From: Eledone cirrhosa
Taxonomy: Eukaryota
Length of the DNA: 64,000 nt
Assembly: GCA_964016885.1 (NCBI GenBank)
Contig: OZ024744.1
Coordinates: 68,386,001-68,450,000, forward strand
Direction of reading: 5' to 3'
Below the pieces are notes generated by a model, which searched no databases, was not told the DNA's origin, and saw only the letters and a program-made list of their open reading frames with translations. A program made the translations under genes and the position numbers. Numbering within the stretch: position 1 is the stretch's first letter; every line of letters starts with the position of its first letter. Of the stretch, positions 1,330-60,770 are shown in pieces.

Positions 1330-1486
<157 letters not shown>

Positions 1487-1655
1487 ACGAAGGAAGTGTG
1501 GTAAGTAACCAGGTAGACCATAACAACGCTCCAAAGTACTCGATACTGGGTAGTACAGTGTGTAATGGGAAAAGAGTCGGCTGAGCTAACAATACCACGT
1601 TAGTTCAGACCTAGCTGTCGAAACGGCTGGAGCTCAGCCGTCGCGGTCCTGACGC
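1487..1655 (-). mobile_element. Penelope-like terminal fragment with an inverted partial hammerhead (family of 47214-49195)
   Basis: taacgaaggaagtgtggtaagtaaccaggtagaccataac matches the reverse complement of 49140-49195 and also 60568-60630. It carries the hammerhead 3' half GAAAcggctggagctcagccgTC. Confidence 0.65.
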
Positions 1656-1669
1656 TTTATATATATATA

Positions 1670-12776: not shown

Positions 12777-12826
<50 letters not shown>

Positions 12827-21452: not shown

Positions 21453-21464
21453 TTATCTTAATTT

Positions 21465-23369: not shown

Positions 23370-26330
23370 CTAACAGTGCTGCGATCGAATGTGGCTTTTT
23401 AGCCCAGCCAATGATCTAAAATGTCTTGCACAGAGTCGGCAACCAAAACATTCACTGGGAATAGTCGGCTGTGGTTGGAGTTCGTGTACTTTTGCATGTC
23501 GCTTGAGCCCTCCTGCTGATTTACATTCTCTACCACATGTTTGGCAAGCATGATGAGTAGCATCTCCAACAGCAGCCTGGTAGTCAACCACTGGTCTTAC
23601 TTTATGACTGCGAAGATGACTTTCGAGTCCAGCTTTGCTTAGGCAGAGTCTCGCACAGACGCTGCATGTCAGCACCATAGGAGGACCCTCGCCGTCTGGA
23701 AGTGCAACAGCAATGCCCTTCCTCACGTCCCGCTTTACTTTCTCGTGTGCGATTCGAGATGCCTCAAAGGCAACTTTTCCCTCATATACAGTCTTTCTCC
23801 ATTTATTACGATCAGCAGCAATATTTTCCCATGTATCAGCAGAGATGTTAGCGTGTTTCAGAGAGGCTTTCAAGGAATCCTTATACTTCTTTTTTGTTTA
23901 TGTGGCGGTCGTTTTCCTTTAACTAACTCTCCATAGAAGAGTTGTTTTGGTTTTCTAGAATCCTTCATCCTGGCAAGGTGACCACTCCAACGGAGTCGTT
24001 TCTTAAGCACAAGAGCTTCTATACTGTCACACATAGAGCTTTCCAAAATCTCGACATCACTGATGTGGTCCCTCCAGTGAACGCCATGGATCCGTCTGAG
24101 ACACATCTGATGGAAACGCTCCTATTGCTTAAGGTGGCGTCGATATGTGACCCAGGTCTCGCAGGCATAAAGAAGACAAGAGAGTACACATGCCCTGTAC
24201 ACCTTTACCTTTGTCCTCCTGCATATGTCTCGCCGACCCCAGAGTCGCCTTTCTAGCTTTCCGAAAGCATCACTTGCTTTCCTAATCCTAAGTGAGATTT
24301 CACTGTCAAGGTTGCCGTATAGATTGACAGGGCTTCCCAGGTAGACAAACTGATCAACCACTCCAAGTCGTTTGCCATACACATAGATGTTTGGTTCAGT
24401 GTACTGCTTACTAGGGGCAGGTTGGTACATGACGACGGTTTTCTTGAGACTGACAGTCAAACCCAGGGCAGTGCAAGCGTCAGAAAATACATTCAAAATG
24501 TGCTGCATATCACTCTCTGTGTGCGCTACAAGATCGCAATCATCTGCATACAAGAGGTCTCTTATGACTGATGTAAATACTTTTGTCTTCGCAGCAAAGC
24601 GCCTGATGTTAAATATGTTGCCTGAGGTTCGATATCGGATGTAAACACCATGCTCGCAATTCCTGAATGCAATACAGAAAACCATTGCAAAGTATATGGC
24701 AAACAGGGTCGGTGCTGGAATATCCCCCTGTTTCACTCCATTTTTTACTGAGATAGGCTCCGACATGTTACCTCCGACATTAACCCAAGCCTTCATGTCG
24801 TCATGGAAAGACCTAACTAAAGCAAGGAACTTATCAGGGCAACCAAGTTTCTGGAGAACCTTCCATAATGCATCTCTGTTGACAGTATCGAAAGCCTTTG
24901 TCAGATCGACAAAAACCTGATACAGATCCAAGCCCTGTTCAATGCACTTCTCCTGGAGCTGTCTAGCTGAGAAGACCATATCAGTAGTGCTGCGTCCAGC
25001 ACGAAAACCAGATTGACTTTCAGGAAGGACACAATCTGCAATGTGTGTCAGCAGACGGTCCAGAAGCACCCTACATAAAACTTTCCCTACGACAGAAAGC
25101 AATGATATACCTCTGTAGTTCCCACAATCATTCCTGTTACCATTTCCCTTGTACAAGACCACCATTACTGCATCTCTCCAGTCCTCAGGCACGGATTCAT
25201 TAGCCCATATCCCTCCAAACAGAGAGTGAAGATGTTGCAGGAGTCTCTCACCACCATATTGTAGGAGCTCAGCATGTATGCCATCCATACCTGGAGATCT
25301 TCCACTGTTCAGCTTCGAAATAGCCACTGCAACCTCCACAAGCGTCGGAGGTTCTGCGAGAGCTACTTTCACGTCTGCCTACATCATAAACCGACTTTTT
25401 AAGGGTCGGCCAATCCTCACCAAGATCTGCAGCCTGCATCTCTTCTTCCAATGTCCTCTTCACATTTTTATCCTTAAGACGAGCAGCATTCAATCTTTTG
25501 GGCAGGGTAACACCAGGAGCCCGGATTTTACGTTTGGTGATTAGATTCACTTTTGCGCGTACCAGGCGGTGGTCCGTCCAGCACTCAGCTCCACGAAGAA
25601 CACGAACACACTGCACATCCTGTCTGTCACGCATCCTGACTAGGACGTAGTCCAAAAGATGCCATTCCTTAGATGCAGGATGCATCCATGTGGTCTTGAA
25701 TTTGTTCTTTTGTTGGAACATGGTGTTGGTAACACACAGATCCAGCTCCTCACACATCTGCAGCAAGAGCATACCATTGCTGTTACACTTTCCCACCCCA
25801 TGCCTTCCGATTACATTCCATGTGTTAAAATCACTACCCACTCTAGCATTAAAGTCACCAAGCACGATGACTTTGTCTGCCTGAGGGATATTTCTTAGAA
25901 CACCTTTCAAGGCATGGTAAAAGGACAGTTTTTCTTCATCGACAGAATTCATAGTTGGAGCATACACACTCACCAGGGTAGCATATTTTCCCTTGTCCAG
26001 CGGAACTCTCATGGACATAAGACGCTCACTAATCCCTACTGGGAATTCTTCTAATTTATTCACCAGTACAGTCTTAACAGCAAATCCTACCCCAGCCTCT
26101 CTTCTGGTTCCTTCATCTCTTCCTTTCCAGAAGAATGTATATTCTCCACAAAATTCCGTAAGATGACCATCTCCAGCTAACCTCGTCTCAGATAAAGCCA
26201 CGATGTCAAGATCGTAACGTCGAAGCTCCTTTGCAACAAGAGCGGTCCTTCGTTCAGGACGCTCCAAAGAATCCCTGTCAAGCAGCGTCCGTACGTTCCA
26301 GCAGCCAAGACTAAATGCCCTGTTTGGCTC
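23370..26330 (-). pseudogene. RTE ORF: apurinic endonuclease, reverse transcriptase and three C2H2 zinc fingers (disrupted)
   Basis: ORF pieces 25269..26462, 24122..25372, 23870..24106 and 23370..23873. There is an in-frame stop at ~24122, a frameshift at ~23890, and an EN-RT linker deletion at ~25375. Confidence 0.9.
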
Positions 26331-26470
26331 TATTACAATGGCACGATGACGGGCGGGCCCAGGTTGTGATAACTTGGGGCCCCTGCCCTTATTGCCAATG
26401 ATCCATTTTGTTCCAGAACCCAAATTGGCAATTATCTCGTTTACATTGTTCTGGAGCATCATTGAATTGG

Positions 26471-26507
<37 letters not shown>

Positions 26508-26984
26508 TAATAATAGTAATGATAATAATAATAATAATAATAGTACACTATTAATAATTATTAATGCACTCGTGCAATGCCTGTGCGTGACGAATATTTT
26601 TAAAGTGAGGAAAGACTGTGCACTGAGCCAATTCCACTCTCTGAGCGACAGTAGCTATAACCCGAAAAGAAGAAAAGATCAACATCATCGGTAACTACTG
26701 AGCCGCAGATTTTATATCGGAGTTAACCCAGTTTCCTGAGATGCCTTCTCCTAGAAGAATACCCTGACAAGGGCTAGGCGTTCTTCACTCCCAGTGGTTT
26801 AAATGCGCGATCGGGCATCCAGCCTGATTATTTCTATGTCCCCGCGTAAAAAAAAAAAAAAAAAAAAAATCACTTATTGACACTTATACGTACGACATAC
26901 ACACACACACATACATATGCGCGCACACAGGAACACTCATACATACAACAAACACACACACACGCTACTCTACTCACTTACACG

Positions 26985-28109: not shown

Positions 28110-31100
28110 TTAGAGACTTTTTATTAAATTTAAGATGAATACTATCTCCGACAGTAATGCCACAACTACAGTCAGGTTGAATAACTGGTTATTCTTCTAA
28201 CTATCCCTTCTGAAGACACCTTTTATTCGAATTCGTAGAGATATTCGACTAAATACATAATTCATTTTACAAGGATTTGCTACAAACAGCATGGCTGAAC
28301 ACAACATCAACAAAAAAATTAAGGAAGTACCGAAGACAAATAACAAAGAAGGTAATCAAACTTTATTCAGTTGTAGCTACAGAAGAAACCGAAATTATAA
28401 ATCGCATTTCTCTTGGAGTTGCGAACTCAATAATGATTTATTTAATTGTTATAAAATGGCAAAAAACAATCCCTCCATTGGCTATATGAACAGAATGAAG
28501 CTACAGCGGGACGAAATGCACCCAGAGCTAAATTATTTCACAGTGAAACGATGTTTGTTGAAAGTAAAAATAAGATAAATAGTATTAATTGTAAGTCCCC
28601 CACAACAAACACGGGATCAACTGCACGTGCTACAGGTCGCCATGCTGCTAGAATTCCTAGCAGCCAGGTCGAACAGCATCTTGAAACAACTATGCCTGTA
28701 AGAAACTTGACACCACCTGTACCATATAAGTCTACCCCGAATGCTGGGGAAAACATTATTGATAATAATAATAATCGAAGAAATTTGACACCACGTGTAC
28801 CATCCGAGTCTACCTCGACTATTGTGGAAAATACTATCGATAATGATAATCAAAAGAATTAACAATTGAAATTTCCCTCAATGAAATCTACTAGAGAGAA
28901 ATTAACTCATGTATAAATATCTCTCTTGCTGAACGTGTTAAAACGACAATGTTGTATAAAAAACTAAATAATGAAATATTACGTGTTATTGACGAAATAG
29001 GGGATGAATATTTACGACGGATAAAAACCCCAACATTTTGGCAAATCAACGCCTGTTTATATGCCTTAGCAATGACAGTGAAGCATTATCTTGGTGATAG
29101 CAGAGATATTAACAAGAACAAAACACCACCAAAAATATCATCATATATAACTAAAATAGAAAAAAGATTGCTGACCTACGAAAAAACATAGGATATGTGA
29201 CAATGCTCCTTACATGAAAACAAACACAAAAACCCTCACTCGTCACCAACAAAGAGTGAAAAATAAAATAGAGACGAAGTTTGGTAACAGAAGAACCAAA
29301 ACTCTTCAATATAAGCTGATCACCCTCAAACAAGAATAGACATCTGTTAGCGAAAAACGCCAATACCTGAAGCAGGTAGATGAAAGAAAAGTGCTTAATA
29401 AAATATTCAGACGAAATAAAACATCAGTCTATAGAGATATGAAGGGCAAAATAATAAGTGTCACTGAGGCCCCATCCCAGAAAGACATAGATTCCTTTTG
29501 GAGCAAAATATGGGGTGAAAAGAAGAATTTCAACCAAGATGCAGTGTGGCTAAGAGAAATCCAAAAGAACTATTGCTCCTACACTACAATAAAAAGATAC
29601 GAAATAAGTGAGGGTACCCTTGAGACTGTGATAGGAAAACTCCATGATAAGAAAACACCAGGAAGAGACATGATTGTCGGCTACTGGTACAAAAAACTGA
29701 TATTCTATCGGAGGTATCTTACTGACCTCTACCAACAAGTTCTTAAGGGAGATACACTTATACCAGAATGGTTGACATTAGCACAAACATTACTGGTCCC
29801 CAAGAACAAAGACATCCACTTGGCAAAAAACTACCGACCCATTGCATGCCAGAACCTGATGTATAAGATGTATACAGCCTGTCTGAACCTATTCCTCCAA
29901 GATCACTGTGAAAATAATAACATCATCACAGATAAACAAGCAGCTGGAAAGAAAGGGGTTTGGGGATGTGCTAATCAACAAAACTGCGATGTCGGAGGTG
30001 CGACAACTTAGGACTACAGGAAAGCTTTCGATTCTGATCCCCACTCTTGGATGATAGAGGCCCTCCAACTTGCTAAAGTCCCAGACATTATTGTCAGAGC
30101 CATAGAGAAGCTGTCTTCTTCTTGGGCTGCTATCCTAAGGTTAAAGACAGAGAGGGAGGACTCTATTTTCACTGATAAAATAAAATATTGCAGGGGTATA
30201 TTTCAGGGGGACAGTCTCTCTGTGATATTGTTCATCTTTTATTGTTCACCCTAGTCATTTCTTTTCAAGAAATGTGAGGGATACATCATTGGCTCACAGG
30301 AGGACAGAAATACGAACCTAACCCATAATTTCTTTGTGGACGATCTGAAACTCTATGCCAAGAACATGGATGGGATGAAGAAAAATCTTGACCTGGTTAC
30401 AACGTTCTCAAAGGATATAGGAATGGAGTTTGGCCAAGATAAATGCTCATACATGACTGTAAAGCGGGGTAAAACAACAACCCAATCTAGCAACATTGTC
30501 ATCAATGGCCTAACTGTTTCACCGATATCTGATGAGGACTGCTACAGATACCTGGGGATAGATGAGAACATATCCTATAATGGTATCTGTAATAAATAAC
30601 GCGTAACCAAGGAATACTACACCCGATTAAGAAAGATCTGGTCATCGGAACTCTCTGCGCAAAACAAAACAGTGGCTCACAATGTGTTTGCTGTGCGTGT
30701 CTTAACACCAACGTTTGGAATACTCAATTGGACGATAGACGAAATCCGAGCAGTTGATGTTGGAACTCGAAAAATACTAAACAACACCGGAAACTTCCAC
30801 ATCAACAGTGACATAGACCGCCTTTACTTGAAACATAAGCAGGGAGGCAGAGGCCAAACATCAGTCCAGACAGCATTTGAATGTCGCATCATATCTCTCC
30901 GACAACATCTACGAACCTCGAAGCGTAGGAGCCCGTTTCTCGAGCAAGTCTATCTGCATGAAACAAATAAGATCATGAGAGTTGGGAAGGAACTCCTCGA
31001 GAGATATTCCCTATGTGATAATCAAAAACTCACACCCAGGGATGTCGCTCAGCAGTATCGCAGTGAATCCATGGATGAAAAACTGCATGCCTATCAGCAA

Positions 31101-32220
31101 AAAATCATGCATGGATATGTTGCCAGGAAGCTCCAGAGTGAGAGTAATAGATAAGGAAAGTAGTCTATCTTGGATCAACAACCGCTATATTGGCTCCCAC
31201 TTTGAAGGATACGCTTTTGCAATCCAGGAACAGGAGATTAGCACGAAATACCTGATTCACAAAAGAGATAGTGATGCAGGCAAAACACCTAGATGTGATA
31301 ACAAGTGCAGACTCTGCAGAACTAACATCGAGGATATCACCCATATCATCAGCAGCTATCCAAAGATGTCATCCCGGTACTATCTACCTATGAGGCATGA
31401 TGTAGTGGCCAAAGCACTGTACAATGCAGTTCGTAAAAAAGATAACCCCGAAAATAAACGCATTAAAAGCTACAGCAATGTGGAAGACATCCATGTACAT
31501 AATATGAAAGAGTAATGGTGGAATGTTCCAGTAAAAACCCCAATACAATGCAAGCATAACAGACCAGATATTATGATATGGGACAGGGAGAAGAAAACAT
31601 GCACAGTAGTGGAAATTAGCTGCCCAGCAGATGCCAATATATTATCAAAGATTAGTGAAAAGGAGAACATTTATGCAGAACTGATGAGAAATCTGCAGAT
31701 ACTCCACCCTGATTATTCCTTCAGATTTATACCTGTGATTATTGGGGCACTGGGGTATGTTAGTAATTGCCTCAATACAAAACTTGAGAAACTAGGCTTC
31801 ACAGGAACAGAAAGAACACAACTAGTTAGGAAATTACAAGTACAATCCATTAATGGAACAGTAAACATATGTAAAACATTCCAAAAATGTTGCATCTATG
31901 AACTGCATATACACATGTACAGATACTAAGCATATACACATGCACACATACAACTCAAAACATACACATCCACACATACAATAACATCCATATCTACACA
32001 TGCATGCATACATACATAATCTACCTAGTTGATGTTGTGTAAATTCCAAAGAGTCAGTCTTGTGTCTATGTTAGAAACCGACTCTCTCTCTATTGGCAAA
32101 CATTCGTGAAATTACAAAACCAGAAGAATATACATACATACATACATACATACATACATACATACATACATACATACATACATACATACATACATACATA
32201 CATACATACATACATAAATA
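28110..32220 (+). mobile_element. R4/Dong-like RLE non-LTR retrotransposon, decayed, flanked by (TACA)n
   Basis: RT: NYRPIACQN, GIFQGDSLS, FVDDLKL, YRYLG. Then IDRLYL..GGRG, a CRLC..EDITHIISS knuckle, RHD, and RPDI..WD..VVEISCP RLE motifs. (TACA)n lies at ~28079-28108 and 32130-32216. Confidence 0.9.
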
Positions 32221-32304
32221 TATACCTAGTATGTATATATTTATGGATAAAAATTTCTAAAGTTATGAAACCAGAAGAACATACATATATACATACAGAA
32301 AACG

Positions 32305-32625
32305 ACTAGTTAGGAAATTACAAGTACAATCCATTAATGGAACAGTAAAAATATGGAAAACATTTCATAAATTATGCATCTAATAACTGCATATACACAT
32401 GTACAGACACAAAGCATATGGACATGCACACATACAACTCAAAACATACACATACACACATACAATAACATCCATACCTGCACACACATGCATGCAGACA
32501 TACATATCTACCTAGTTGATGTGTAAATTCCAATGAGAGAGTCTTGTGTCTATGTTAGAAACCGACTCTCTCACTATTGGTAAAACTTTGTGAAGTTATA
32601 AAACCAGAAGAACATACATACATAC
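32305..32625 (+). mobile_element. Second tandem 3'-end copy of the same Dong-like family
   Basis: actagttaggaaattacaagtacaatcc...aaaaccagaagaacatacatac repeats 31821-32140 with divergence. Confidence 0.85.
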
Positions 32626-33425
32626 ATGATGATGGCTGCCCCCTCATTATCGAGTATGGCCATTGCACGAAAAAAAAATCATAATAATAATAATGATAAT
32701 AATAATAATAACAACATTAATAATAATAATAATAACGATAATAATAACAACAACAACAGCAACAATAATAATATACATATATACACACAAAGACATAAAC
32801 ATATCTACACACACACTCACGCGCGCGATAGCAATTAACAGTGCTGCGATCGAATATGGCTTTTTAGCCCAGCCAATGATCTAAAATGTCTTGCACAGAG
32901 TCGGCAACCAAAACATTCACTGGGAATAGCCGGCTGTGGTTGGAGTTCGTGTACTTTTGCATGTCGCTTGAGCCCTCCTGCTGATTTACATTCTCTACCA
33001 CATGTTTGGCAAGCATGATGAGTAGCATCTCCAACAGCAGCCTGGTAGTCAACCACTGGTCTTACTTTATGACTGCGAAGATGACTTTCGAGTCCAGCTT
33101 TGCTTAGGCAGAGTCTCGCACAGACGCTGCATGTCAGCACCATAGGAGGACCCTCGCCGTCTGGAAGTGCAACAGCAATGCCCTTCCTCACGTCCCGCTT
33201 TACTTTCTCGTATGCCATTCGAGATGCCTCAAAAGCAACTTTCCCCTCATGTACAGTCTTTCTCCATTTATTACGATCATCAGCAACATTTTCCCATGTA
33301 TCAGCAGAGATGTTAGCGTCTTTCAAAGAGGCTTTCAAGGAATCCTTATATTCTTTTTGGGTTTATGTAGAGGTCGTTTTCCTTTAACTAATTCTCCATA
33401 AAAGAGTTGTTTTGGTATTCTAGAA
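32626..33425 (-). mobile_element. 5'-truncated copy of the zinc-finger RTE
   Basis: ORF 32835..33338 is nearly identical to 23370..23873, with the same 3' terminus gatggctgccccctc(a/g)ttatcgagtatggcca. Confidence 0.92.
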
Positions 33426-33427
33426 CC

Positions 33428-35905
33428 CATCGTCCATAACCGCATGTTTGACAACAACCAGAAGATGTTGTTTGGACAGCTTGAAGGGAAAGAAAGAGGC
33501 AACGACTTGATCTCTGAGGCGGAACAGAATAAGACATTCTGGAGAGGAATATGGGAGCAGGATGTTAAACATAATGACCAGGCAGTGTGGATTGAGACAG
33601 TACAAAAGGAGATTAGTGAACAGGCACACCAACAAACTGCTTTGAGTATCACAGTTGAAACTCTTAAAGGGCAGGCCAAAAAAACTAAACAACTGAAAAT
33701 CACCTGGCCCAGATGGTGTGCATGGGTATTAGATTAAAAATATAACATCCTTCCACTCGAAACTGACAACCATGTTCAATGACTGCTTTATATCAGGTGA
33801 GGGCGAGAGTTGTTGACAAAAGGTACCACAGTTCTGATAATGAAAGACCGAATCAAGGGTAATGATGATACCAACTATAGACCTATCACATGTCTGTCCG
33901 TAATGTGGAAATTGTTGACAAGCATTGTGTCTGAGGAAATCTACCATCACCTCCACACAAACAACTTGTTACCGGACGAACATAAAGGATGCCGAAAGAA
34001 GTCCCGTGGTACAAAGGACCAGTTACTTATTGATAAGATGGTAACGAGGAATTGCAAGAGGAGACACACTGGTCTTGCCATGGGATGGATAGACTACAAA
34101 AAGGCATTTGACATGGTGCCTCATTCTTGGATCACCAAAAGCCTAGAGATCTTCAATGTGCCAGATAACATCAGACAGTTGTTGAGCAAAAGTATGAAGT
34201 ACTGGAAAACAGAGTTAACATCAGCTAGAGAATCCTTGGGAGGCGTGAAGATCAAGAGAGGTATCTTCCATGGAGATAGTATGTCCCCTCTGTTGTTTGT
34301 CCTTGCCCTGATGCTCCTGACCATTATACTGCGAAAGGTGAGAGCAGGATACAAGTTGGGAAAGGGAGAGCTTACCATCAATCACTTCCTCTTCATGGAC
34401 GATCTTAAGCTCTTCGAGAAGAGTGAGAATGACTTGGATGTGCTTATTGACACTGTCCGTATTTTCAGCAATGATATATGTATGCAGTTTGGTATTAGTA
34501 AGTGTGGAGTCCTTGTGGTGAAGAGGGGTAAATTGAGCAGAAGCAACGGAATCCAAGTACCAACAGGTGAGATGACAAAGGAAATTGACACTGAGGAAGG
34601 ATACAAGTATTTGGGTGTTCTGGAGGCTGATGACATCAAGGAAAAAAAATGAAGGAATTGATAAGATCTGAATACATTCGGAGAGTAAGGAGCGTATTAA
34701 AGTCACATCTGAACAGTAGGAATGCCATAAGTGCAGTAAATTCCCGAGCTGTGTCTATTATTAGGTACAGTGCGGGAATTCTGAGATGGAATGTTGCTGA
34801 ACAAAAAGAAATGGATAGGAAGACTAGGAAGCTATTGACTATCTACAATATGTTCCACAAGAGGAGTGATGTCGATAGACTCTACTTAAGGAGATCTGAG
34901 GGTGGAAGAGGTCTTATCAGCATAGAGGACTGTGTTCAGATCGAGAAAAACAACCTACACAAGTACGTGACTGATAGTAAGGAGCCAATGCTCAGAATTG
35001 TACTGAAGGAGAGGACAATAAACCAGGGGATGTCCAAGGAGGAAATAACAACAAGGAGAAAGAGCAACCTTCAGGAAAAATCCCTTCATAGTACATTATT
35101 TGAGAAAACTGAATTCAGAGATCCACCGACATGGAACTGGTTGAAAAGAGGAGACCTTAAAAAGGCTACAGAAGGAATGCTAATGGCTGCGCAAGAGCAG
35201 GCTCTCAAAACGAAGTGGCTGAAACACCATATTTACAAGGAGGAGGCTAGCCCACTGTGCAGGATCTGTGGAGAGAGAGAGGAGACTGTGGCTCACATTG
35301 TATCCGAGTGTAAACACCTAGCCCAGACTCACTATAAAGGCTGGAGACATGATGTGATGGGCAGGGTGATCCACTGGCACCTATGCAAAGTAAACAATTT
35401 ACGATATTCTGAGAAGTGGTATGAGATTAAACCAGAGTCGGTGATAGAAAACGATCAGGTGAAGGTGCTGTGGGATTTTAGGATACAGACGGAGAAGAAA
35501 CTGGAACAGAATAGACCTGGCATGGTGGTTTTGGACAAGGAAAAAGATCGTGCCTGATTGTGGCTGTGGCCTGCCCATTCGACACGAGAGTGTAAGAGAA
35601 GGAGAGGGAGAAAATTAACCGATACCAGGAGAAAGTGGGAGGGAAAAAGGATTTGGAACTGCCATGAAGTCAAAGTGGTCCCGATTGTTATAGGCACACT
35701 AGGTACTATCTCAAAAAGTTTCCAGGGATGGTTAAAGAAGATTGGCGCCGCCCCGCTTTTTGGAAAACTTCAAAAGGCATGCTTGCTGGGGACAGCAAGA
35801 ACCCTCCGATACGTCCTGAATATCTGAGGCTGCAGTTAGTGGCTTGATATTCATTTCAACAAACTTTCTAGTTAACTAACATCAATGACTGAGACTCAAA
35901 GAACA
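33428..35905 (+). mobile_element. R4/Dong-like RLE retrotransposon 2 (5'-truncated, frameshifted) with a (TAA)n tail
   Basis: [75 protein letters not shown]. Confidence 0.92.
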
Positions 35906-35925
35906 ATAATAATAATAATAATAAC

Positions 35926-35957
<32 letters not shown>

Positions 35958-35958
<1 letters not shown>

Positions 35959-38900
35959 TGATGTTAGAAAATGAAGCATGTGTCAGTGAAAACGAGGTAA
36001 ACTGTAACACTTCGAATCCCAGGGTTGGGGCGGAATCACTGGCAACAGAACAAATTAAAGAAAGGAGCGAAAAAGTGGAGGGAGTGCATGCTCAGTATGA
36101 AACTGCAAATGAAAATAATGAGATCGTAAATGATAAAGAAATGAATGAGAATGAACTTGCCAACTTGAAGGATGAAATTATGATCGAATGGATGAAAATG
36201 AAAGAATCTGACATGGGGCAACGAGACACCCTCCCTAAGATCCAGAACTCCAAACAGAACCAAAAGATAATACACAAGACTAACATAATTCTCAAAAACA
36301 TTATCATCACAAACAAACTAAACATTACTGACTTAAATCATCTCTATTATGCATCGGCTAAAGTCACCACTCACTTATGTGGAGTGAAGATGAAAAAACA
36401 AAGGAATTCCCACAAGAAATCTACTTGGCAAGATAACATCAATCGCCAAATAAACCTTCTCGGATCTGACATAGAAATTTTAACAAACTATAAGGTAGGT
36501 GAACATGTTAAACAAACTAAACTTAGAAAATTGAAAAAAAAGTACAGTATAAGATCAACATGTGACATAGACATGCTGATAGAAACAATCAAGCAAAAAG
36601 TGTCGGCCAAAGCTGCTCGTATAAGGCGCTTTGAAAAACGATCTAGATTCTATAAGGACAATAATATGTTCAAAAACAACCAAAGAAAATTCTACAGAAA
36701 AATTGACAAGTCAACAATAACTGCTAAATCAATACCACCCAAGGAGGAAGTGCAAGAATTCTGGGGAAAGATCTGGGCCGAAGAAAAAGTTCATAACATA
36801 CATGCCCCATGGATAGACAGACAAATGAAAGATACAGCTCACCTTGAGGAACAAACATGGGAAAATATAACAGTTGAACAGTTGCGCTTGGCTCTAAGAA
36901 AAACCAGCAAATGGAAATCCCCAGGAAAAGACAAAATACAAAACTTTTGGATAAATGCCTTCACAGAGTCTCATGAGCTGTTAGCCCAACTTTACAATGA
37001 AATAGTTAAGGAGCCAGAAAAGATACCATCATGGCTAGTTAACGGTATTACATTCCTGCTACCGAAGAATGATGAGACAAACAATCCCAAAAATTACAGA
37101 CCGATAACCTGCTTGACCACAATGTATAAAATTTTAACATCAGTCCTAACTGAATACACATATGACCACCTGATAACAAATGACCTATTTCCCATTGAGC
37201 AGAAAGGGTGTAAACGAGGCTCATATGGCTGTAAGGATCAGCTTCTGGTTAACAAAATGATACTGGAAGATTGTCATAATAGACACAAACATCTATCGAT
37301 TGCTTGGATAGATTATAAAAAAGCATTCGATAGTTTGCCACACAGTTGGATTGAAAATTTTTTAGAGATTTTCAAAATATCCCCCGTTGTCAGGAGGTTT
37401 TTGTCATTCAGTATGAAGACATGGAGATCGACACTCCTTTTGAATAGTGAAACAAAATCACTGGAAGCTGGATAAGTTAATATTAATTGTGGAATTTTTC
37501 AGGGTGATTCTTTATCACCGCTTTTATTCTGCATCGCACTTATACCATTAAGTAAAATGCTCAATGAAACAAAACATGGATATAGAGTCTATGACAAAAC
37601 CATTAATCACCTGTTCTACATGGATGACCTGAAACTATTTGCAAAAAATGATGAACAATTGCAAGGGCTATTATCCACTGTGAAGCAGTTCAGTGATGAC
37701 ATTAAAATGGAGTTTGGACTGGATAAATGCGCCAAAGCAACGTTCACCAGAGGGAAGCTGCTGAAGAGTTCAGACATTAATCTTGATCGGGGGAACGTGA
37801 TAAGAGAGCTTGATCAAGAAAAAACTTACAAATATCTAGGTGTTTGTGAAGGAGACGGAATCAAGCACTCGACAATGAGGGAAAGGATAAGGAAGGAATG
37901 TTACCGCAGAGTCAGAGCAATCTTAAGAACGGAATTGAATGCAAGGAATAGGATCGATGCCATAAACACGCTTGCCATACCAGTAGTAACCTACAGTTAC
38001 AATGTCATCAACTGGTCAAGCACAGAGATCCGTAGGCTCGATACAAAAATCCGAAAATTCTTAACCATGCACAGAATGCATCACCCTAAGGCAGACATAG
38101 ATAGAATATATCTCCCTAGGAAAGAAGGAGGACGTGGGTTAATCCAGTTAGACATTGCGTTGAAAACTGCAACAATTGGATTATCCACATATCTAAGGGA
38201 ATCACATGATTGGATGATCAAACTCGTTTCGAAACACGAAAGCACCAAAAGATCATATTCCATTACAAAAGATGCACAAAGATACAGTAATGGACTACAA
38301 ATTTCAGAAGTCCCATTTACTGCTGAAATGGAAAACACAGAAAAAGCAAAGCAGGTAAAAGTAACTGCAAAGAAAGAACTGCTACAGAAACTGGCTAAGA
38401 AATGGCAAGAAAAGCCTCTGTATGGAAAATACCCAGAGCGAGCTAACAATCCTGATGTTGACAAAACTTTAACCCATCAGTGGTTGGCATCCTCTGGACT
38501 GAAATCGGAGACTGAAGGACTGATTATATCGGCACAAGATCAGTGTCTGCCAACAAAAAATTACCAAGCCAACATAATAAAAAATGGGTGCAGCCCATTA
38601 TGCCGTGTATGCAAAAAACAACCAGAGACCATTGACCATATAATTTCAATGTGCAGTCCTATAGCTCCAACCGAATACCTAAACAGGCATGACAGAGCTG
38701 CACAATACATACACTGGATAATGTGTAAGCATTTTGACCTGCCCCATCAAAAGAATTGGTGGGAGCATCAACCACCTCCCATACTTGAAAAAGATCACAT
38801 CTCAATCTTGTGGAACTTTAGCATCCAAACAGACCGAAAAATAGATGCAAATAGACCTGATATAATATTGAAGGACTTTCAAAGGAGGGTATGCCTGCTA

Positions 38901-39167
38901 ATTGGTATGTCTGTTCCAATAGACAAGAATGTATCTATAAACACATTTGAAAAATTGAGCAAGTATAAGGACCTGGAGATAGAAATTGGAAAAATGTGGA
39001 AATTGAGAACTAAAACAATACCAGTGGTTGTAGGCGCTCTGGGAATGATACCTAAGGGGTCTAACGAATACTTATCGCAAATCCCAGGAAACCCACGTAT
39101 AGGAGAAATACAAAAGATAGTACTAATTGGAACTGCCCATATACTAAGGAAGATCCTGTCAATATAA
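35958..39167 (+). pseudogene. RT + CCHC knuckle + restriction-like endonuclease ORF with one premature stop at 37473-37475
   Basis: [38 protein letters not shown]...ETIDHIISMC, RHD, NRPDII, KLSKYKDL, IPVVVGALG. Confidence 0.9.
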
Positions 39168-39596: not shown

Positions 39597-42500
39597 TTAC
39601 AGACACATACTCAGAGAAGGCCCATTCATTCGGGCCATACTTGCTTCTCTCACCCATCTTTCAACAAAATGCTGGGAAGAGAGCACTTCCCTCTCTACCC
39701 TGATTTTCCTTTTCAAATGAAATTTGAAAAAGTTAATCAGGGCATCACCGAAGAGGTAAGTGCTCGTCTTCAGCCCTTTCAAACGTGTCCACCATACTAT
39801 CTCTTTCGCCATGGCCACCAGACAGATAAAAACTGCCTACCCTTCCCGGCAAAAGGAAGGGGGCGGGGCAATCCTCACGATGGACTCAGCTGATAGCTGG
39901 ATCCGTCCTACACGTGACAGCAGGTGTTCGACATAAACCCACAAGTCAGCAATGCTCGGACACTGGACGAGTGCGTGCAGGACGGTTTCGTCGCCCTGCG
40001 CGCATCTCGGACATGCCCGGCTGACGGAACCTCCATGCCTGTAGAGTTTATCCCGAACTGGCAAGGCTCCTCGGTAGCACTGCCAGGCCAGGGATTTCTG
40101 GAAGTTGTCCATAGGCCCCGGCCCGAAAGTCCTTCCGAAGAGATTGGCTAGTTGATTTTCGTCGACGCCTAGAGTTTCTCCAAGTACGTCGTCGCTCTTC
40201 CCCTCCACTAATCCCCTATAGAACGCCAAGGTGGAGTTTCCACCGATCACATTGCCCGATTGGTCGAGGGCAGTGAGCGCCTGAAGACATTCCAGTCTCC
40301 AAGCGCTCCCTCTCGGTCTTCGCTTGACCCAGGACTGCAGCTCCGTCAAGGAGACGAGCTGGGGAAAAACGTGTCTAGCAAACGGCGACCACACCTGATC
40401 ACCGTCGAGGAAGAGGTGGAGATGTCGTAGCCTGAGCGCGTGTCTGCGCATCATCAGCCACGGCATGCCCAGCCCTCCACGTAGCGGGTGTTGACAGCAG
40501 ATGGACCGCCTGACCATCGGAGCGCGTCCCTTCCACAAGAAGCGAAAGAGCAAACGCTCCAGCGCAGTCAGGCGGGGCTTAGGACAAGGTACGACGGTCA
40601 GGCAGTAGTAGATGACGGACGCGATGTACGCGTTAGCCACCTCCGCTCGACCTTTCAGGGATAGCTTCCTCTCCGCCCATTTCTGGGTGAGAGAAGCCAC
40701 CCTGTTCGTCACCTCGTCCCAGTTATTGTCCGTCTGGAGGTCTGGACCGAACCAGACCCCTAGCAATTTAACCGGTCCGTCTGTCCAGCGCCCGACGACG
40801 CTGTTGGACGGCATGGACCTGCCTCTCCAGGTGCCGAGTTGCAGGCCCACTGACTTTTCCTGGTTGATCATTGCTCCTGTCACCGCTTCGTATTCTCTTA
40901 GTGTAGTACAGATCGCCTCGATGTGTTTGGCGTTCGACACCACTACGGTGACATCGTCGGCATATGCTGACACGGATCTTCCGCATCCTAGTTCGCGCGG
41001 GACCCCCCTCAACGTCTCCAGTTTGTGCAGTAATGGCTCGAGAGTCAATACGTACGATAGGGACGAGAGGGGACATCCTTGGCGGACCGAGCGCATGATA
41101 TTGAACGGTTCCGAAAGGTGACCGTTCACTCTCACTACAGAGCAGATGTCGCTGTGCATGGCAGCGATCCAGCCTCTGAAGACGGGCCCAAAGCCAGCCG
41201 CCCTCAGGACTGCCGCTAGGTAACGATGGTCGACCCTATCGAAGGCTTTCGACTGATCTAAATTGATCAAAGACTCACCCGTGCCAGGTTCCCTAGCTAC
41301 CCTCTCTACGATGTATCGCATGAGGTGGAGGTTGTCGTGGATGGATCTGTCGGGAATGGCGCATGTCTGTGCCTCTCCCACCAGACCACCAACGACAAGC
41401 GCCAACCTCTTTGCTAGCACCTTGGCCAAAATCTTGAACTCTGTGTTTAGCAGAGTTATGGGCCTAAAATTATCTATGTTATCCCCCTTGTTCGGATCCT
41501 TTCTCAGCAGCGCCACCGCTCCTCGGCTCACAGAGCTGGGAATTCTCCCGTTCTGTTGCCAGTTGCAGTAGACGTCCGCCAAGAGGCCTCCGAACAAGTT
41601 TGGCATTTGTACGTAAAGTTCATAGGGCAGACCATCTAAACCAGGCGATTTACCCCTTGTGCAACTAGTCATTGCATCCCGTACTTCAGCGGTTGTTATC
41701 GGCTTTTCGCAACACTCCGCCTCAGTGGCCGAAAGCCGCGGCAGTCCGTCGAGGTAGACACTAAAGTCCATCCCTCGATCCGGCCCGCCACTGCCCCCGA
41801 ACAGTTGAGCGAAGTGTCGCTGAAAAGCTTCACACATTTGCCCGGGATCGAGTAGCATGCGCCCGTCGTGGTCCACCAAAGACCGGATCGTGGCTTTGTT
41901 GCCACGACGCGCCTCTGCCACTCGGGCCCATTGAACGGCTTTCGTCCCCTCGTGTCTGAGAGCACGCACCCTAGCTCTGACAACGCAGCCTTCGTGCTTT
42001 GCATTGAAGAATTGGTCAAGGGCCAATTTCGCCGCAAGTACGTCGGTCGCGATGCCTTTGCTAAGCGCCTCATCTAATTTTCTAACTAATTCTCCCTCTG
42101 CTCTATTTTTCTCTATTGCTAAAGTCTTACTAAACCTAATGGACTCTATTCTAATTGCTCTTTTCAGAGCAAACCACCACTTGTTGTTGACGATGGCCCC
42201 CGTCAACGCCCGCTTAACTAGTTCGCTAATCCGGTCTCTGTAGGCCTTGCGCGCTGGTAAGGACGCGTTTAGCTTCCAGTAGCCGGGTCCTCGTCTATGA
42301 AGCCTATCTAAGTCAAGCACACAGATCACGAATTTGTGGTCCGTGTAGCTGACTATCTTGAATTGTGGACAGCCTATGCTAGACCTATCTATTTCCCTAC
42401 ACAATACTCTATCTAGATATGATCTGGATGACCCTATGCGATCTGTCCAAGTCCACATTGGTACATTCGGGAAATCCATTCGGTACCTGTCAGACAGTTC

Positions 42501-43016
42501 AAAACGTCTGAGCAGGTTGGTGAGACTCTTGCACCCTCCTTCCCTATCCACTAATCCCACACAATCCCAGCGTGCATCTAAGATCCCGTTTCAGTCGCCC
42601 ACTAACACTAAAGAGCGGGACGTTCCAAGAAAGGTCTCCAGACACCGGAAGAAATCAGGCCGCCCTGCTCCTGTCGGGGCATAGACGGCCACTAACCTGA
42701 AAGCTTGGCCGTCTCCGCTGGTCACGTCCAGCACCACCAACTTACCTTCTGGGTCCAGGAAGATGGCCCGTATGGCAAGATCCAAACCTCTCCGAAAAAG
42801 CACAGCCACTCCTCCCCCCGATCCCGGACGGCTGGGAGATGCGTACACAACGTAGCCGCCGAAGATCGGTGCGAAAGTTTGTGCTTCGGAGATTCTGGTC
42901 TTGCTGATGGCCACTACATCTATGTTTAGTGACCTGAGGTCGTTGAGCAGGTGGCCCTGCTTCCATGACGACCCCAAGCCACGCGCATTTATGCTGCCTA
43001 TTCTGTGTGAGGTCAT
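39597..43016 (-). pseudogene. Tx1-like ORF2 (APE endonuclease, RT, zinc knuckle), ~1139 codons with two in-frame stops
   Basis: SINARGL, VYAP, VGD*N, SYLDRV, TDH, GYWKLN, KSPGLDG, FRPITLLN, DQSKAFDRV, VRQGCPLS, YADD, CPRC...ETVLHALVQC. Stops at 42591-42593 and 39837-39839; all three pieces share a frame. Confidence 0.92.
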
Positions 43017-43050
43017 GTTGAAAAGGAGTGGAAAAGATGGGAAAGACCAC

Positions 43051-45020
43051 TTACCTTACTTCTCGTAGGGGAAGGACGGTTTTTCCATCCTTTTCACTGC
43101 TTGTGGCCTCCTCAGGAAGGATGTCCTTATAAATCCTCCTGGAGAGTGCTTGTCGGAAGTCTCCGATGTCTTTGGGGAATTTTTGTTTTAGTGTCATGTA
43201 CGTTTTCTGTGTGATGCGAGTGATTTGTATGTGTGGAGGTGGTGTGAATTTTGGGGTTGTTGTGTAGTCTTTTTCTGTGATGCTGGTGTTGTGTTGGATG
43301 TAGTGTAATAATTGCTTGTTGTTCAAATTTAATGCTGTGTAGTGTGTATCGTTTTGGTTGTTTTGTTTTGTTTGCGTTTGTTGTGGGTTTGTTTCTGTTT
43401 CGCATTTTGGTGACTTTTGTGGTGTAGGTGATGGTGGTGTTGGGGTTAATGATGGTGATGGTGTTGGTGTTTGGGTTGATGGGGTTGGTGATGCTGGTGT
43501 GGATGGTGGCATATCTGTCCTAATTTTTTTGTTTCTTAATTTTTTTGTTTCCCTCTGTATTTTGTTTTTGGAGGGGGAAGGAAGAGAATTTTTTCTTTTT
43601 TGGTTTCTTTTTTTTTTCCGGATATCGTTTCCCACTCCTCGTCGTCACAATCTGTCTCCAGTTGTGATAGGCCGGGGAGTGGAAAATCCTCCACAGGCGT
43701 TAGTTTATGTTGTGGCGTGGTGGATGGTGTAGGCGCTGGTGCTAGTTCTGAAGCGTTGGGTGGTGGTGGTGTTGGTTTTGCTACTGTTGCTGGGGTTGTT
43801 GCTGTTATAGTTGCTTCTGTTGTTGCTGCTACAGTTGTTGCTGCCATCTCTGCTACTGGTGGTGTTGATGGTTGTGTCACTGGGGTGGGTAGGAGAGGTG
43901 GCCTCAACCTTTTAGCCTGAGGGCAGAAAGCCCTTAGGTGGGTTCCTTCACCACAAACCACACACCTAGGTCTTCTGCCCTCGACAATTACCGTGAGGTG
44001 GCTGCCGTCAGTGAGGTCTATTACCTCTGGGATCTCCTCAATGCTTTTTTGGTCCGCTTGGATCAGGAGCTCCATCCCAGATCCGGACCAGTTCTCCTGC
44101 TTTTCTTTTGCTATTGCTATTATTTTCGTGTTGGCTTCGATGCCGGCGAGGACAGCCGCTATTAGCCAGGGAATTTCGATGGCCGGTGGAACGTGGGTCA
44201 TCCTGATCTTTACGAGTCTCTGGCCTCAATAGCTTGGGACGAGTGTGAAGTCGTCACTTCTTAATGGGGCCATGGAGTGTTCTCTAGCCTCCTCTGGTGT
44301 TTCAAAGAACACGTCCACGGTTCCATACTTTTGCCCACGTCTGATGTGGGTTTTTCTTGCCCACACATGTCCCAAAGCTTTTTGGATTTGGGACTCGGAT
44401 GCCCGTTCCACTCGGCGCGATTTTACATTTATTGTTCTATACGACACGGTGCATAGGCGCCGATGCTCCATTTTATTAGGTGGGGGTGGGGGTGAGGTGA
44501 GGCTGACCCTGTACCCATCTTTCTTTACCATTTGTTTGGCATTTTCGAAATCCTCCTGAGTTACCGTAAATGCTTCGAACTGTTTTGCTACTCTGGCGAA
44601 ACTGAGGGGGGTTTTTATAATGTCATTGTTGTTGTTGTTGCTATCGTTAATATTAATTTTAGTTTCAGTTGTGGTGGTGGTGACGTCAGTCGTCTTTGGT
44701 GGGGAAGAGTCCATTTTGCTTGATTTCATTTCGACATCACGAGTTAATTTATTTTTTTCTTCTTTTGTTTCTGTTGTCGCGGTGGTGGTGGTGGTGGTGG
44801 TGGTTGTCGCGGTGGTGGTGGTGGTGGAGGCTTTAACACCTGCAGTCATTGGTAATGGCGGGAAATGAATGTCTGCCTGAGACAAATTTAAAATATTGCT
44901 AGTGCTTATATTTTTTTTTGTGTTGGCAAACGTAGTAACATTTACAATGGTGGTGTCGGTGTGAGGTGTTAATTTGTGAGGAAGGCTTTCAGCTGCTTCG
45001 TGCAGAGGTGAATTAGCCAT
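43051..45020 (-). pseudogene. Tx1-like ORF1 (gag-like, CCHC knuckle, Pro/Thr-rich tail)
   Basis: ATG at 45020; CVVCGEGTHLRAFC knuckle; in-frame stop at 44226-44228; frameshift near the T-run at ~43610. Confidence 0.8.
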
Positions 45021-45274
45021 TTTTTTCAAAGAAATTTTTTTGATAATAATAAAAGTTTAAATTTTGGGCACAAGGCCCCAATCTTTTTGGGTGTCCTTTT
45101 CGGAAAACAATGTATGTGCGTTTATAAACAGTTAACAATAAAATTTTCCATAAATGACAATTTTTAACAAACGGAAATAACAAACCTTTGCGGAGCTCAC
45201 GATGATACGATTTACTACGTAGGTCGCCAATAATAATAATAATAATAATAATAATAAAGTATAGTATAAAAAGT

Positions 45275-47163: not shown

Positions 47164-47217
<54 letters not shown>

Positions 47218-47227
47218 AACCAGTAAG

Positions 47228-47321
47228 ACCCCGACAGCTGAGCTCAAGCCGTTTCGACGGCTAATTCTGGACTAAATGAACATTTATCCTGGTATTTAAA
47301 TAGCCGATCTTCTCAAGGGGT
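47228..47321 (-). ncRNA. Hammerhead, U3:A8 core variant (inverted copy)
   Basis: Reverse complement of 49007-49100. Confidence 0.7.
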
Positions 47322-47686
47322 AATTCCATATATGGTCAAAGTGATTGTCAAAAATCAGTAGTAATTCTGTGGTTGCAAATTAGTAGGGGAGATGGTGGCT
47401 AAACCTGCCAGTAGGAGAAAGAGGGGAGGGGGTGGAGTAGACCCAATCAAGCGTTGGTAGTGCCAGCTACAGCTGGGCATGAGGTCAAAGAAGATACAGG
47501 GGAGGGGGAGGGGGAGGAAGTCGGAACGGTAGGTAGAACAATGGGGGGTAGAAATAGGAAAGAAAAAATACTGAGAGTGAAGAAAAGCAAATAAGTGTAA
47601 AGAAAAAAGTAAAGTAAATTAAATTCTACGACCTAGGTGTCAGGCTATTGTTAGGCGAGAATAAAATAAAGAAAGAAAGAAAGAAG

Positions 47687-47717
<31 letters not shown>

Positions 47718-49006
47718 GGAAATAAGTAAAAGAACTAGGTGGGACGAATTAGGCAAGGACCCTTTTAAGAGGTATAAGTACGTAAATGATACGGTGACTG
47801 GTCAACAAAAGGGGCCAAAATACTAAAGAGACTACCACGAAATAAACAATAAAGGTTTCCATCCCGGGCCAGCAACGACCCAGTGCAGCAAAGTGAACTT
47901 GTACGAGATAATAATTCTGAGTCCCGAGAAAAATATATACTAATGCTAACTCTAAAAGATCTAAAACAAGCTACATGAAAGTTCGTACGAAATAAAGGTA
48001 GAATACGGAGAAATAAATTCAGAATCCACCCCGCCCAGAAGAAAAGCGAAGCAAGAAATACTGAAACGAAAAAATAAGGCATAAGTGCCACTAAGAAATA
48101 TAGAGGGCACAGAGAATAGTGGGAGCGGTCGGAAAAAGGGGGCAAGTATCCGGGGTCTAAGCCAACTGCTATAAAGGGCGGAGTCCGCCAAATCTATCAA
48201 AGACTAGGGGAGGGGGGAGGGGGGAGTGGGGGTACTAAGGCTACATGGGGCCAAAGGGCAGCCTCGGGTGGGCGAGAAAAGACGCCGACAAAGGAGAAGA
48301 GCTGGGGTAGAAGGACAAAGTAGAAGGACATGTAGCTTGGACAAAGTAGAAGGACATGTAGCTTGTTTTAGATCTTTTAGAGTTAGCATTAGTATATATT
48401 TTTCTCGGGACTCAGAATTATTATCTCGTACAAGTTCACTTTGCTGCACTGGGTCGTTGCTGGCCCGGGATGGAAACCTTTATTGTTTATTTCGTGGTAG
48501 TCTCTTTAGTATTTTGGCCCCTTTTGTTGACCAGTCACCGTATCATTTACGTACTTATACCTCTTAAAAGGGTCCTTGCCTAATTCGTCCCACCTAGTTC
48601 TTTTACTTATTTCCTTATTTATTTATTTATTTATTTATTTACTTCTTTCTTTCTTTCTTTATTTTATTCTCGCCTAACAATAGCCTGACACCTAGGTCGT
48701 AGAATTTAATTTACTTTACTTTTTTCTTTACACTTATTTGCTTTTCTTCACTCTCAGTATTTTTTCTTTCCTATTTCTACCCCCCATTGTTCTACCTACC
48801 GTTCCGACTTCCTCCCCCTCCCCCTCCCCTGTATCTTCTTTGACCTCATGCCCAGCTGTAGCTGGCACTACCAACGCTTGATTGGGTCTACTCCACCCCC
48901 TCCCCTCTTTCTCCTACTGGCAGGTTTAGCCACCATCTCCCCTACTAATTTGCAACCACAGAATTACTACTGATTTTTGACAATCACTTTGACCATATAT
49001 GGAATT

Positions 49007-49100
49007 ACCCCTTGAGAAGATCGGCTATTTAAATACCAGGATAAATGTTCATTTAGTCCAGAATTAGCCGTCGAAACGGCTTGAGCTCAGCTGTCGGGGT
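49007..49100 (+). ncRNA. Type I hammerhead ribozyme with a U3:A8 compensatory core
   Basis: acccc-TTGAGAA-gatcggcta...tagccgtc-GAAA-cggct tgagctc agctg-TC-ggggt. All three stems pair; GUC site at 49093-49095. Confidence 0.72.
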
Positions 49101-49292
49101 CTTACTGGTTCCTATTACCCACTCTACTACCTCAAGTATTGAGTACTTTGGTGCGTTATGGTCCACCTGGTTCCTTACCACATTTCCTTCGTTATATATA
49201 TATATATATATATATACTGTATATATATGTATACACACACTCCCATAAAATACACACGCACACACACACACATACATACATACATACATACA

Positions 49293-60374: not shown

Positions 60375-60567
60375 GACTATATATATATGTTTCTTTTTTT
60401 TTTTTAACCGTTGGTCAATCAATGATAAACATTGATTGCCAGATAAATCAACTATGGAGGTATAAAAGATACAGAAGCGAAAACTAATCCAAACCGAACA
60501 GTTATTGTTTCTGGCAATATTATAACAATATGAGTCTCTCCAAGAACAATATATATATATATATATA

Positions 60568-60770
60568 TAACAAAGAAGGTGTGGTAAGATACCAGGTGGA
60601 CCATAACGCACCAGAGTACTTGATACTTAGGGTAGTAGTGTGGGTAGTATGAACAGAGCAGGACACCGACGGCTGAGCTCCGGACGTTTCGACAGCTAGA
60701 TCCAAACTGTTCGGATCTAGCTGTCGAAACGGCCGGAGCTCAGTCGCCGGGGTCCTGACTATTTTCCAGT
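60568..60770 (-). mobile_element. PLE terminal fragment (47214-49195 family) folded back on its hammerhead 3' half
   Basis: caggacaccgacggctgagctccggacgtttcgacagctagatcc / ggatctagctgtcGAAAcggccggagctcagtcgccggggtcctg hairpin, plus the shared tail. Confidence 0.7.

What the first reader, a model, noticed from the sequence alone, without database searches (positions are those of the whole stretch)
47214..49195. 1.9-kb palindromic PLE-like element carrying a hammerhead with a U3:A8 compensatory core
Seen: at 49007-49100 all three hammerhead stems pair (acccc/ggggt; gatcggcta/tagccgtc; acggct/agctgt around a palindromic gagctc loop), with GAAA and a GUC site, but the core reads UUGAGAA rather than CUGANGA. 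Established: C3 and G8 form a tertiary Watson-Crick pair, so U3+A8 together preserve it, and CUGANGA-based searches would miss this motif. Inference: this is a functional variant ribozyme defining a PLE-derived, apparently non-coding family. Its 3' halves and tail recur at 1487-1655 and 60568-60770, with stem III pairing kept despite substitutions (acggct/agccgt).
Basis: partly seen in the sequence, partly recalled or inferred. Interest (0 to 1): 0.75.

Follow-up and report, generated by a model that had tools for sequence, protein, structure and literature searches.

The report
Penelope hammerhead core walks through mismatch
This palindrome is a broken two-armed copy of a young, protein-coding Penelope-like jumping gene whose likely self-cutting RNA has an already published U-A core pair; the added point is that its ancestors kept multiplying while that pair was a C-A mismatch, which makes it testable whether such elements need to cut their own RNA.

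Summary
The palindrome and the hammerhead fold with a UUGAGAA core are confirmed. It is not a non-coding family. The two arms are 5'-truncated ends of a 3,531-bp Penelope-like element with a 717-aa telomerase-like RT plus C-terminal nuclease ORF and Hydra-clade motifs; 56 of 62 scored full-length ORF copies are open. U3:A8 is in print, in PLE hammerheads too (PMC4209133, PMC3088659), and this scan has already noted what appears to be this family elsewhere in the genome (e1-9529586, e1-9522473). U3:A8 is not fixed: of 6,012 in-register copies, 4,610 are U:A, 1,352 C·A and 50 carry G8. Trees put the C·A subfamilies on the trunk between two U:A stages (AU p=7e-45), with U·G and C:G in older sisters. 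The rest of the core and a GAGCUC loop palindrome stay constant. Thirty-five of 76 nearby 5' truncations start exactly at the predicted cut site, a likely trace of cleavage in vivo. Cleavage itself is untested, and no RNA run was available. Verdict: new member of a known kind, with a useful natural mutational series.

The parts
47164..47212 (.). (TA)n target microsatellite, left flank
47213..48324 (-). Left arm: 5'-truncated copy of the element's 3' UTR and hammerhead (unit positions 2361-3451), ending at the short terminus 20 nt after the cut site
   Evidence: 97.6% identical to the L032 unit
47216..47327 (-). Second, identical U3:A8 hammerhead on the minus strand (U3 at 47316, C17 at 47233)
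   Evidence: arms identical in this part
48313..48364 (+). Inversion junction with a 26-bp direct duplication (48313-48338 and 48339-48364) made of pieces of both arm ends; likely microhomology-mediated repair (inferred)
48355..49195 (+). Right arm: 5'-truncated copy (unit positions 2701-3531) of 3' UTR, hammerhead and tail, ending at the long terminus 100 nt after the cut site
   Evidence: 98.5% identical to the L032 unit
49001..49112 (+). Type I hammerhead: bulged stem I, long stem II with 38-nt loop, stem III
49012..49018 (+). Core 3-9, UUGAGAA (U3 at 49012, A8 at 49017)
49083..49088 (+). Self-complementary GAGCUC in loop III, predicted dimerisation site
49095..49096 (+). Predicted cleavage site GUC|G; 5' truncations pile up here across the genome
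49116..49195 (+). 80-bp PLE tail, present on one arm only
49196..49217 (.). (TA)n target microsatellite, right flank
1484..1657 (.). Small fold-back insertion of an older sister subfamily (tail on minus strand, 3' half of hammerhead on plus strand), in (TA)n
60567..60770 (.). Small fold-back insertion of older sister subfamily B (two 3' hammerhead halves, one with tail), in (TA)n

Best explanation
The stretch is one two-armed insertion, in a (TA)n tract, of a young protein-coding Penelope-like retrotransposon with Hydra-clade motifs, and each arm carries the element's type I hammerhead, which likely cuts at GUC despite its U3:A8 core. Shown: the parent unit is 3,531 bp with an RT plus nuclease ORF; the two arms stop at two fixed sites, 20 and 100 nt after the cut site; sister subfamilies carry C:G, U·G, U:A and C·A at positions 3/8, and C·A lies on the trunk of the lineage. 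Inferred: the element's protein nicks both strands of (TA)n and primes reverse transcription at the two fixed sites, so two incomplete cDNAs grow inwards and are joined head to head by host microhomology repair. Inferred: the ribozyme likely works as a dimer through the GAGCUC loop, possibly helped by the protein, and trims tandem transcripts. Inferred: efficient cutting is helpful but not essential for copying, since the lineage kept amplifying with a mismatched core. This window copy has no ORF and is likely dead; a read-through transcript would likely fold arm on arm and hide the ribozyme.
For: Parent element: 40 of 40 scored hits are 100% identical to 48960-49195; head-to-tail units 3,531 bp apart; ORF of 766 aa, 717 from ATG; 56 of 62 scored full-length ORF copies at 99-100% identity have no stop; model pLDDT 88 with telomerase TERT as top fold hit; RLRWR, DKT, YRDD, CxCx5C, VIY..YIG, CxxC-EE, N, CxH match the Hydra description. 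Ends: of 36 tail-out pairs, 22 had both ends classifiable, of which 20 long+short, 2 short+short, 0 long+long; the same two ends appear in independent contigs. Ribozyme constraint: with positions 3-9 left free, 96 of the first 100 of 6,011 hits keep YUGANRA and the 4 exceptions are singletons, while N7 takes all four bases. 93% of 506 cells pair, with a G-C to A-U swap in stem II. Monomer MFE is the hammerhead (-26.5 kcal/mol); the co-fold is a double hammerhead at -69.5. Footprint: 35 of 76 truncations start at +1 against 4-8 at each of six neighbouring positions (hand tally of the 100 listed of 1,708; binomial p 3e-11 and 30 loci re-read). Walk.
Against: No cleavage assay and no RNA data. 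Folding energy is unremarkable. Covariation is weak against the shuffle control (7 of 500 shuffles reach it, and relatedness inflates it). [quoted passage not shown] A natural CUGANAA hammerhead was inactive in vitro (PMC8490949, passages). The +1 excess could partly come from G/C microhomology or RT pausing at the junction, and at least 5 pairs of rows belong to one insertion each. No reads ended at the cut site in the anole PLE (PMC11167929). Hydra placement rests on motifs, not on a tree with reference clades.
Confidence: 0.85

Rival explanations
1. The hammerhead is a catalytically weak or dead scaffold kept for RNA dimerisation and protein binding, and the 3-8 pair drifts because cutting no longer matters.
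For: A C·A stage on the trunk with 1,352 copies. CUGANAA was inactive in a schistosome hammerhead. Hammerhead mutants did not affect insertion in vitro for the anole PLE. GAGCUC is invariant in 23 of 23 aligned rows while its neighbours vary, though the B and C rows were found with patterns that required it.
Against: U4, G5, A6 and A9 hold when left free; GAAA and GUC hold in the aligned rows; position 3 stays a pyrimidine and 8 a purine; truncations peak at the exact cut site, with both arms starting there in L236/L237 and L238.
Confidence: 0.2
2. The 1.9-kb palindrome is itself the mobile unit: a non-autonomous, retrozyme- or MITE-like family defined by the U3:A8 ribozyme.
For: The window copy has no credible ORF, and small fold-back relatives recur in the window.
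Against: Inversion points differ in each copy examined; the same sequence runs on into a full RT+EN ORF in tandem units; arms end at the parent's fixed termini.
Confidence: 0.03
3. The inverted arm arose after insertion by DNA fold-back or gene conversion of a single copy, not by priming on both target strands.
For: The arms are identical apart from one microsatellite indel.
Against: The two arms end at different fixed sites, long with short in 20 of 22 pairs; the left arm holds about 340 bp that the right arm lacks; young copies differ by only about 3 substitutions in 761 bp anyway.
Confidence: 0.07

Closest known systems
Hydra clade of C-terminal EN+ Penelope-like elements, including Hydra-1_Obim (Craig et al. 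2021, PMC8557442; section 11, passages, supplement parts 1-2 and search hits read)
   Same: Single RT+EN ORF, RW[K/R], DKT, CxCx5C linker, CxxC and CxH around E and N, (TA)n target, hammerhead near the 3' end, tandem and inverted insertion structure with a tail.
   Different: Unit is 3.5 kb with a 1.2-kb 3' UTR (theirs generally under 3 kb). All Hydra hammerheads in their File S2 have CUGANGA with short stems II and III; this one has U3:A8, a 38-nt loop II and a 5-6 bp stem III. Tail is 80 bp, not 30-40. The Hydra-1_Obim hammerhead is a different sequence.
U3-A8 minimal hammerheads of Schistosoma mansoni Cercyon PLEs (Cervera and De la Pena 2014, PMC4209133; parts 1-2 of 4 read)
   Same: Type I hammerhead in PLE repeats with U3-A8 instead of C3-G8 (about 1,300 hits there), palindromic stem/loop III, proposed dimer.
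   Different: Here stem III is long enough to fold as a monomer, the PLE clade differs, and intermediate states (U·G, C·A) are resolved as successive subfamilies.
Natural U3-A8 hammerheads (Perreault et al. 2011, PMC3088659; section 8 and passages read)
   Same: Same core covariation; the paper states such ribozymes were shown active in vitro.
   Different: Scattered examples, not a retrotransposon lineage; the section read names no mismatch intermediates.
Poseidon PLE of Anolis (Frangieh et al. 2024, PMC11167929; parts 1-2 of 4 read)
   Same: Two reverse-transcription start sites bound the tail; both DNA strands are cut and extended; the hammerhead is protein-assisted and dispensable for insertion in vitro.
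   Different: Canonical C3:G8 core; start sites lie inside the ORF; no reads were found at the cut site there, whereas genomic copies here pile up at it.
Animal non-LTR retrozymes (bioRxiv 10.64898/2026.07.22.740005; part 1 of 5 read)
   Same: Type I hammerhead, PLE-related.
   Different: Retrozymes are short non-coding tandem units; this parent is coding and the window copy is a truncated insertion.

Membership tests
EN+ Penelope-like elements | Telomerase-like RT in a single ORF | tested here: met
   717-aa ORF with YRDD; model pLDDT 88; top Foldseek hit TERT 3du5, E 2.5e-8. Pfam gave no hit for the ORF itself.
EN+ Penelope-like elements | C-terminal GIY-YIG nuclease | tested here: met
   VIY-x12-YIG at 591 with downstream E and N. 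Profile support is weak: PF01541 in 1 of 35 aligned members, E 0.014.
EN+ Penelope-like elements | Partial tandems (pLTR) and inverted 5'-truncated copies | tested here: met
   Head-to-tail 3,531-bp units and inverted arms.
EN+ Penelope-like elements | [quoted passage not shown] | tested here: met
   Two termini at +20 and +100; long+short in 20 of 22 classifiable pairs.
Hydra clade | RWK and DKT motifs | tested here: met
   RLRWR at 35 (R for K), DKT at 117 (definition).
Hydra clade | CxCx5C linker; CxxC and CxH flanking E and N; no CCHH | tested here: met
   CNCPDRSIC 572, CNLCSEE 670, NKKDE 689, CKH 698; no CCHH seen on reading the ORF.
Hydra clade | Insertion into (TA)n | tested here: met
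Hydra clade | Falls in the Hydra clade of an RT phylogeny | not tested
   Reference proteins were seen only as paper text; similarity to Hydra-1_Obim judged by eye.
Type I hammerhead ribozyme | Three stems round the core, ends in stem I | tested here: met
   MFE structure; 93% of cells paired in 23 rows.
Type I hammerhead ribozyme | U4 G5 A6, A9, G12 A13 A14, A15.1:U16.1, H17, G10.1:C11.1 | tested here: met
Type I hammerhead ribozyme | Watson-Crick pair between positions 3 and 8 | tested here: met
   U3:A8 in the window and in 4,610 of 6,012 copies; not met in the 1,352 C·A copies of ancestral subfamilies.
Type I hammerhead ribozyme | Site-specific self-cleavage | not testable with these tools
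   Indirect only: truncation peak at +1.
Type I hammerhead ribozyme | Tertiary contact between stem I bulge and loop II | not tested
   A 6-nt bulge and a long loop II exist; no contact was modelled.
Non-LTR retrozymes | Non-coding tandem unit, no RT of its own | tested here: not met
   The tandem unit encodes RT+EN.

The most novel reading that the evidence does not exclude
A single Penelope lineage walked its hammerhead's 3-8 core pair one base at a time (C:G, U·G, U:A, C·A, U:A) and made over a thousand copies with the C·A mismatch that silences other hammerheads, because the ribozyme is completed by a dimer and by the element's own protein: the invariant GAGCUC loop pairs two RNAs that serve as the two templates of each double-ended insertion, and cutting still leaves its mark at the exact site in genomic copies.
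Probability: 0.25. Interest if true: 0.65.

Novelty: new member of a known kind. Interest (0 to 1): 0.36.

Why it matters
The role of hammerheads in Penelope-like elements is open (PMC8557442 calls it unclear; PMC11167929 found cleavage dispensable in vitro). This family is young and abundant, has intact ORFs, and supplies a natural ordered series of core variants in an otherwise constant scaffold, plus a genomic read-out of cutting. That lets one test directly whether cleavage, dimerisation or protein help is what selection keeps. The headline claim, U3:A8, is not new.

Tried and rejected
Rfam scan: no hammerhead hit at the element. Folding z-score uninformative. ORFs inside the window element are short and not credible. 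Pfam and PDB sequence searches gave nothing for the ORF, so the fold search was used instead. RNA runs: no RNA holder listed; the contigs laid are of unknown kind and were used only for variants and ends. The first tree used outgroup and family-B rows chosen for G8; one search freed positions 3 and 8 and showed family B is mostly U3:A8, so the tree was redone. The position of the C:G rows of B inside B in that 150-column tree is not trusted. Eighteen of 122 rows were dropped for under 100 nt of upstream match; one search used family A only (76 rows, young rows thinned), and its groups were named. The loose CUGANGA pattern (125 hits) is mostly chance matches in flanks. The constrained fold had its mask one base off and is not used. 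Tail variants could not separate late C·A from early U:A copies, so the cut-site peak cannot be assigned to the C·A stage; the two marker groups did not differ (14 of 25 against 15 of 37, p 0.30). Three papers were not held and are not cited for content: Luense et al. on dimeric PLE hammerheads, Martick and Scott 2006, Przybilski and Hammann 2007. Supplements of PMC4209133 and PMC3088659 were not opened and may list further core variants. The look-up by sequence in earlier findings was blank.

Full report
Observation. The element lies between two (TA)n tracts. Its arms, 47213-47977 and 48355-49115, are identical except for a 4-nt indel. The hammerhead is as described: ACCCC/GGGGU, core UUGAGAA at 49012-49018, stem II closed by G49019:C49072, GAAA at 49073-49076, stem III round GAGCUC, and GUC ending at C49095. 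It is the minimum-energy fold, though the energy is not unusual (z -0.34), and Rfam does not report it. The two other window copies are real, at 82-86% identity.

The parent is a coding element. All 40 scored genome hits to 48960-49195 were 100% identical, of 410 candidates. Several sit 3,531 bp apart in head-to-tail arrays. Each unit holds one ORF of 766 aa, 717 from the ATG. Of 62 scored full-length ORF copies at 99-100% identity, 56 have no stop. A search found 2,049 homologues among 7,996 candidates scored, the best at about 40% identity. The predicted structure is confident (pLDDT 88) and its best match is telomerase TERT. The ORF has the motifs that Craig et al. give for the Hydra clade (PMC8557442 section 11; motifs). 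The window element is two 5'-truncated pieces of this unit, positions 2361-3451 inverted and 2701-3531 direct, joined by a 26-bp duplicated patch. 'Non-coding family' is therefore wrong. The host is probably a cephalopod, an inference from the repeat landscape and earlier notes that I did not test.

Ends. Copies stop at two exact points, 20 and 100 nt after C17, each running into (TA)n. Across 230 loci, 207 distinct hammerhead 3' ends split into 103 short, 72 long and 32 other or unreadable; the first 30 loci were chosen to hold the tail, so these totals are biased. Of 36 tail-out pairs, 22 had both ends classifiable: 20 long+short, 2 short+short, none long+long. Independent contigs show loose (TA)n ends at the same two places. 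This fits the anole PLE, where two reverse-transcription start sites bound the tail and both DNA strands are cut and extended (PMC11167929, parts 1-2). I infer priming on both target strands. Whether one RNA or two serve as template is not shown.

U3:A8 is known. Cervera and De la Pena report about 1,300 U3-A8 hammerheads in schistosome Cercyon PLEs (PMC4209133, parts 1-2). Perreault et al. report natural U3-A8 and state it was shown active in vitro (PMC3088659, section 8). The Hydra hammerheads listed by Craig et al. all have CUGANGA (File S2), so the variant is new only relative to that list. This scan has also noted what appears to be this family on other pieces of the genome.

U3:A8 is a stage, not a fixed state. 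With one flanking pattern, 6,012 copies match YUGANRA. Of these, 1,352 are C3·A8 and 50 have G8 (by reading the list, 41 U·G and 9 C:G), leaving 4,610 U3:A8, of which 1,885 have a base other than G at position 7. Independent contigs show C at position 3 in about 24% of depth in run X1 and about 4% in run X3. Trees built with positions 3 and 8 masked form a ladder. In my labels: A0 (U·G), A1 (U:A), A2 (C·A, several successive nodes), then A3 and the young window family (U:A). Holding the C·A rows as one side clade is rejected (p-AU 7e-45), as is joining all U:A rows (4e-39) (groups were named). With positions 3 and 8 free, older family B is mostly U:A, and family C and a part of B have C:G (first 100 of 151 listed). 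So C:G is likely ancestral. Within family A each step changed one base; the order among C, B and A0 is less certain. Searches for a published C3-A8 or U3-G8 family returned only a single schistosome CUGANAA candidate, which was inactive (PMC8490949, passages).

Is the ribozyme functional? For: with positions 3-9 free, 96 of the first 100 of 6,011 hits keep YUGANRA and the four exceptions are singletons. Position 7, the free position of hammerheads, changes between subfamilies. In 23 representative rows 93% of cells pair and stem II shows a G-C to A-U swap, but the covariation is modest against shuffles. Two copies co-fold as a double hammerhead through GAGCUC, -69.5 against 2 x -26.5 kcal/mol. 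Following the lead in note e1-9529586, I asked where 5'-truncated copies begin near the cut site. Of the first 100 of 1,708 hits, 24 were intact copies with indels; of the other 76, 35 begin exactly at +1 and 4-8 at each of six neighbouring positions (hand tally; p 3e-11 and 30 loci re-read, where one indel copy was mislabelled +2). In two insertions both arms begin at the cut site, and one of these has a tail variant seen in C·A-stage copies (a single case). Against: rows are not all independent, G/C microhomology or RT pausing could add to the peak, and a deep-mutational study of another hammerhead found only the C3G/G8C swap active (PMC9901934, passages).

Mechanism, with status. Shown: coding parent, (TA)n targeting, two fixed termini paired long with short, hammerhead topology, stepwise core changes. 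Inferred: nicking and priming on both strands, host microhomology joining, cleavage at C17 in vivo (about 0.65), dimer formation through loop III (about 0.5), and tolerance of weak cleavage during the C·A stage. The window copy lacks the ORF, and a transcript through it would likely pair arm with arm over 761 bp.

Verdict. A real feature and a new member of a known kind. What remains of interest is the ordered natural series of core states with a mismatch on the trunk, and the cut-site footprint.

Noticed in passing
window 12820-14809: Another two-armed insertion (215-bp arms) holding the nuclease end of a different Hydra-type ORF at 13125-14006, 37% identical to this family's protein.
   Followed up: partly
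window 16682 and 22772 (+): Two canonical CUGANGA hammerheads of other repeat families; the second is the weak Rfam HH9 hit, the first lies behind a GIY-YIG-type ORF at 15767-16375.
   Followed up: partly
window 4925-8527, 18643-19595, 20038-21454, 3432-3683: Further long near-perfect inverted repeats; fold-back insertions are common in this window.
   Followed up: no
window 23370-26654, 29340-39167, 39837-45056: LINE-type ORFs with RT and endonuclease-like sequence, several fragmented (typed by reading, not by a family search).
   Followed up: no
L032:2347-2520: The 80-bp tail is also the start of the next unit's open frame (a TTG at 2371 is in frame with the ATG at 2518), and it holds short palindromes such as AAGTATTGAGTACTT that may form the protein-binding hairpin.
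   Followed up: no
G000:C1:437.196-437.214 Mb (L031, L032): An array of head-to-tail 3,531-bp units preceded by an inverted piece, one insertion of about 16 kb; compatible with a circular or tandem RNA template.
   Followed up: partly
L032:2100-2600 depth profile: Contig depth over the tail and 3' half of the hammerhead is several hundred times that over the ORF start, so tiny end fragments far outnumber full copies (summed contig depth is not a copy number).
   Followed up: no
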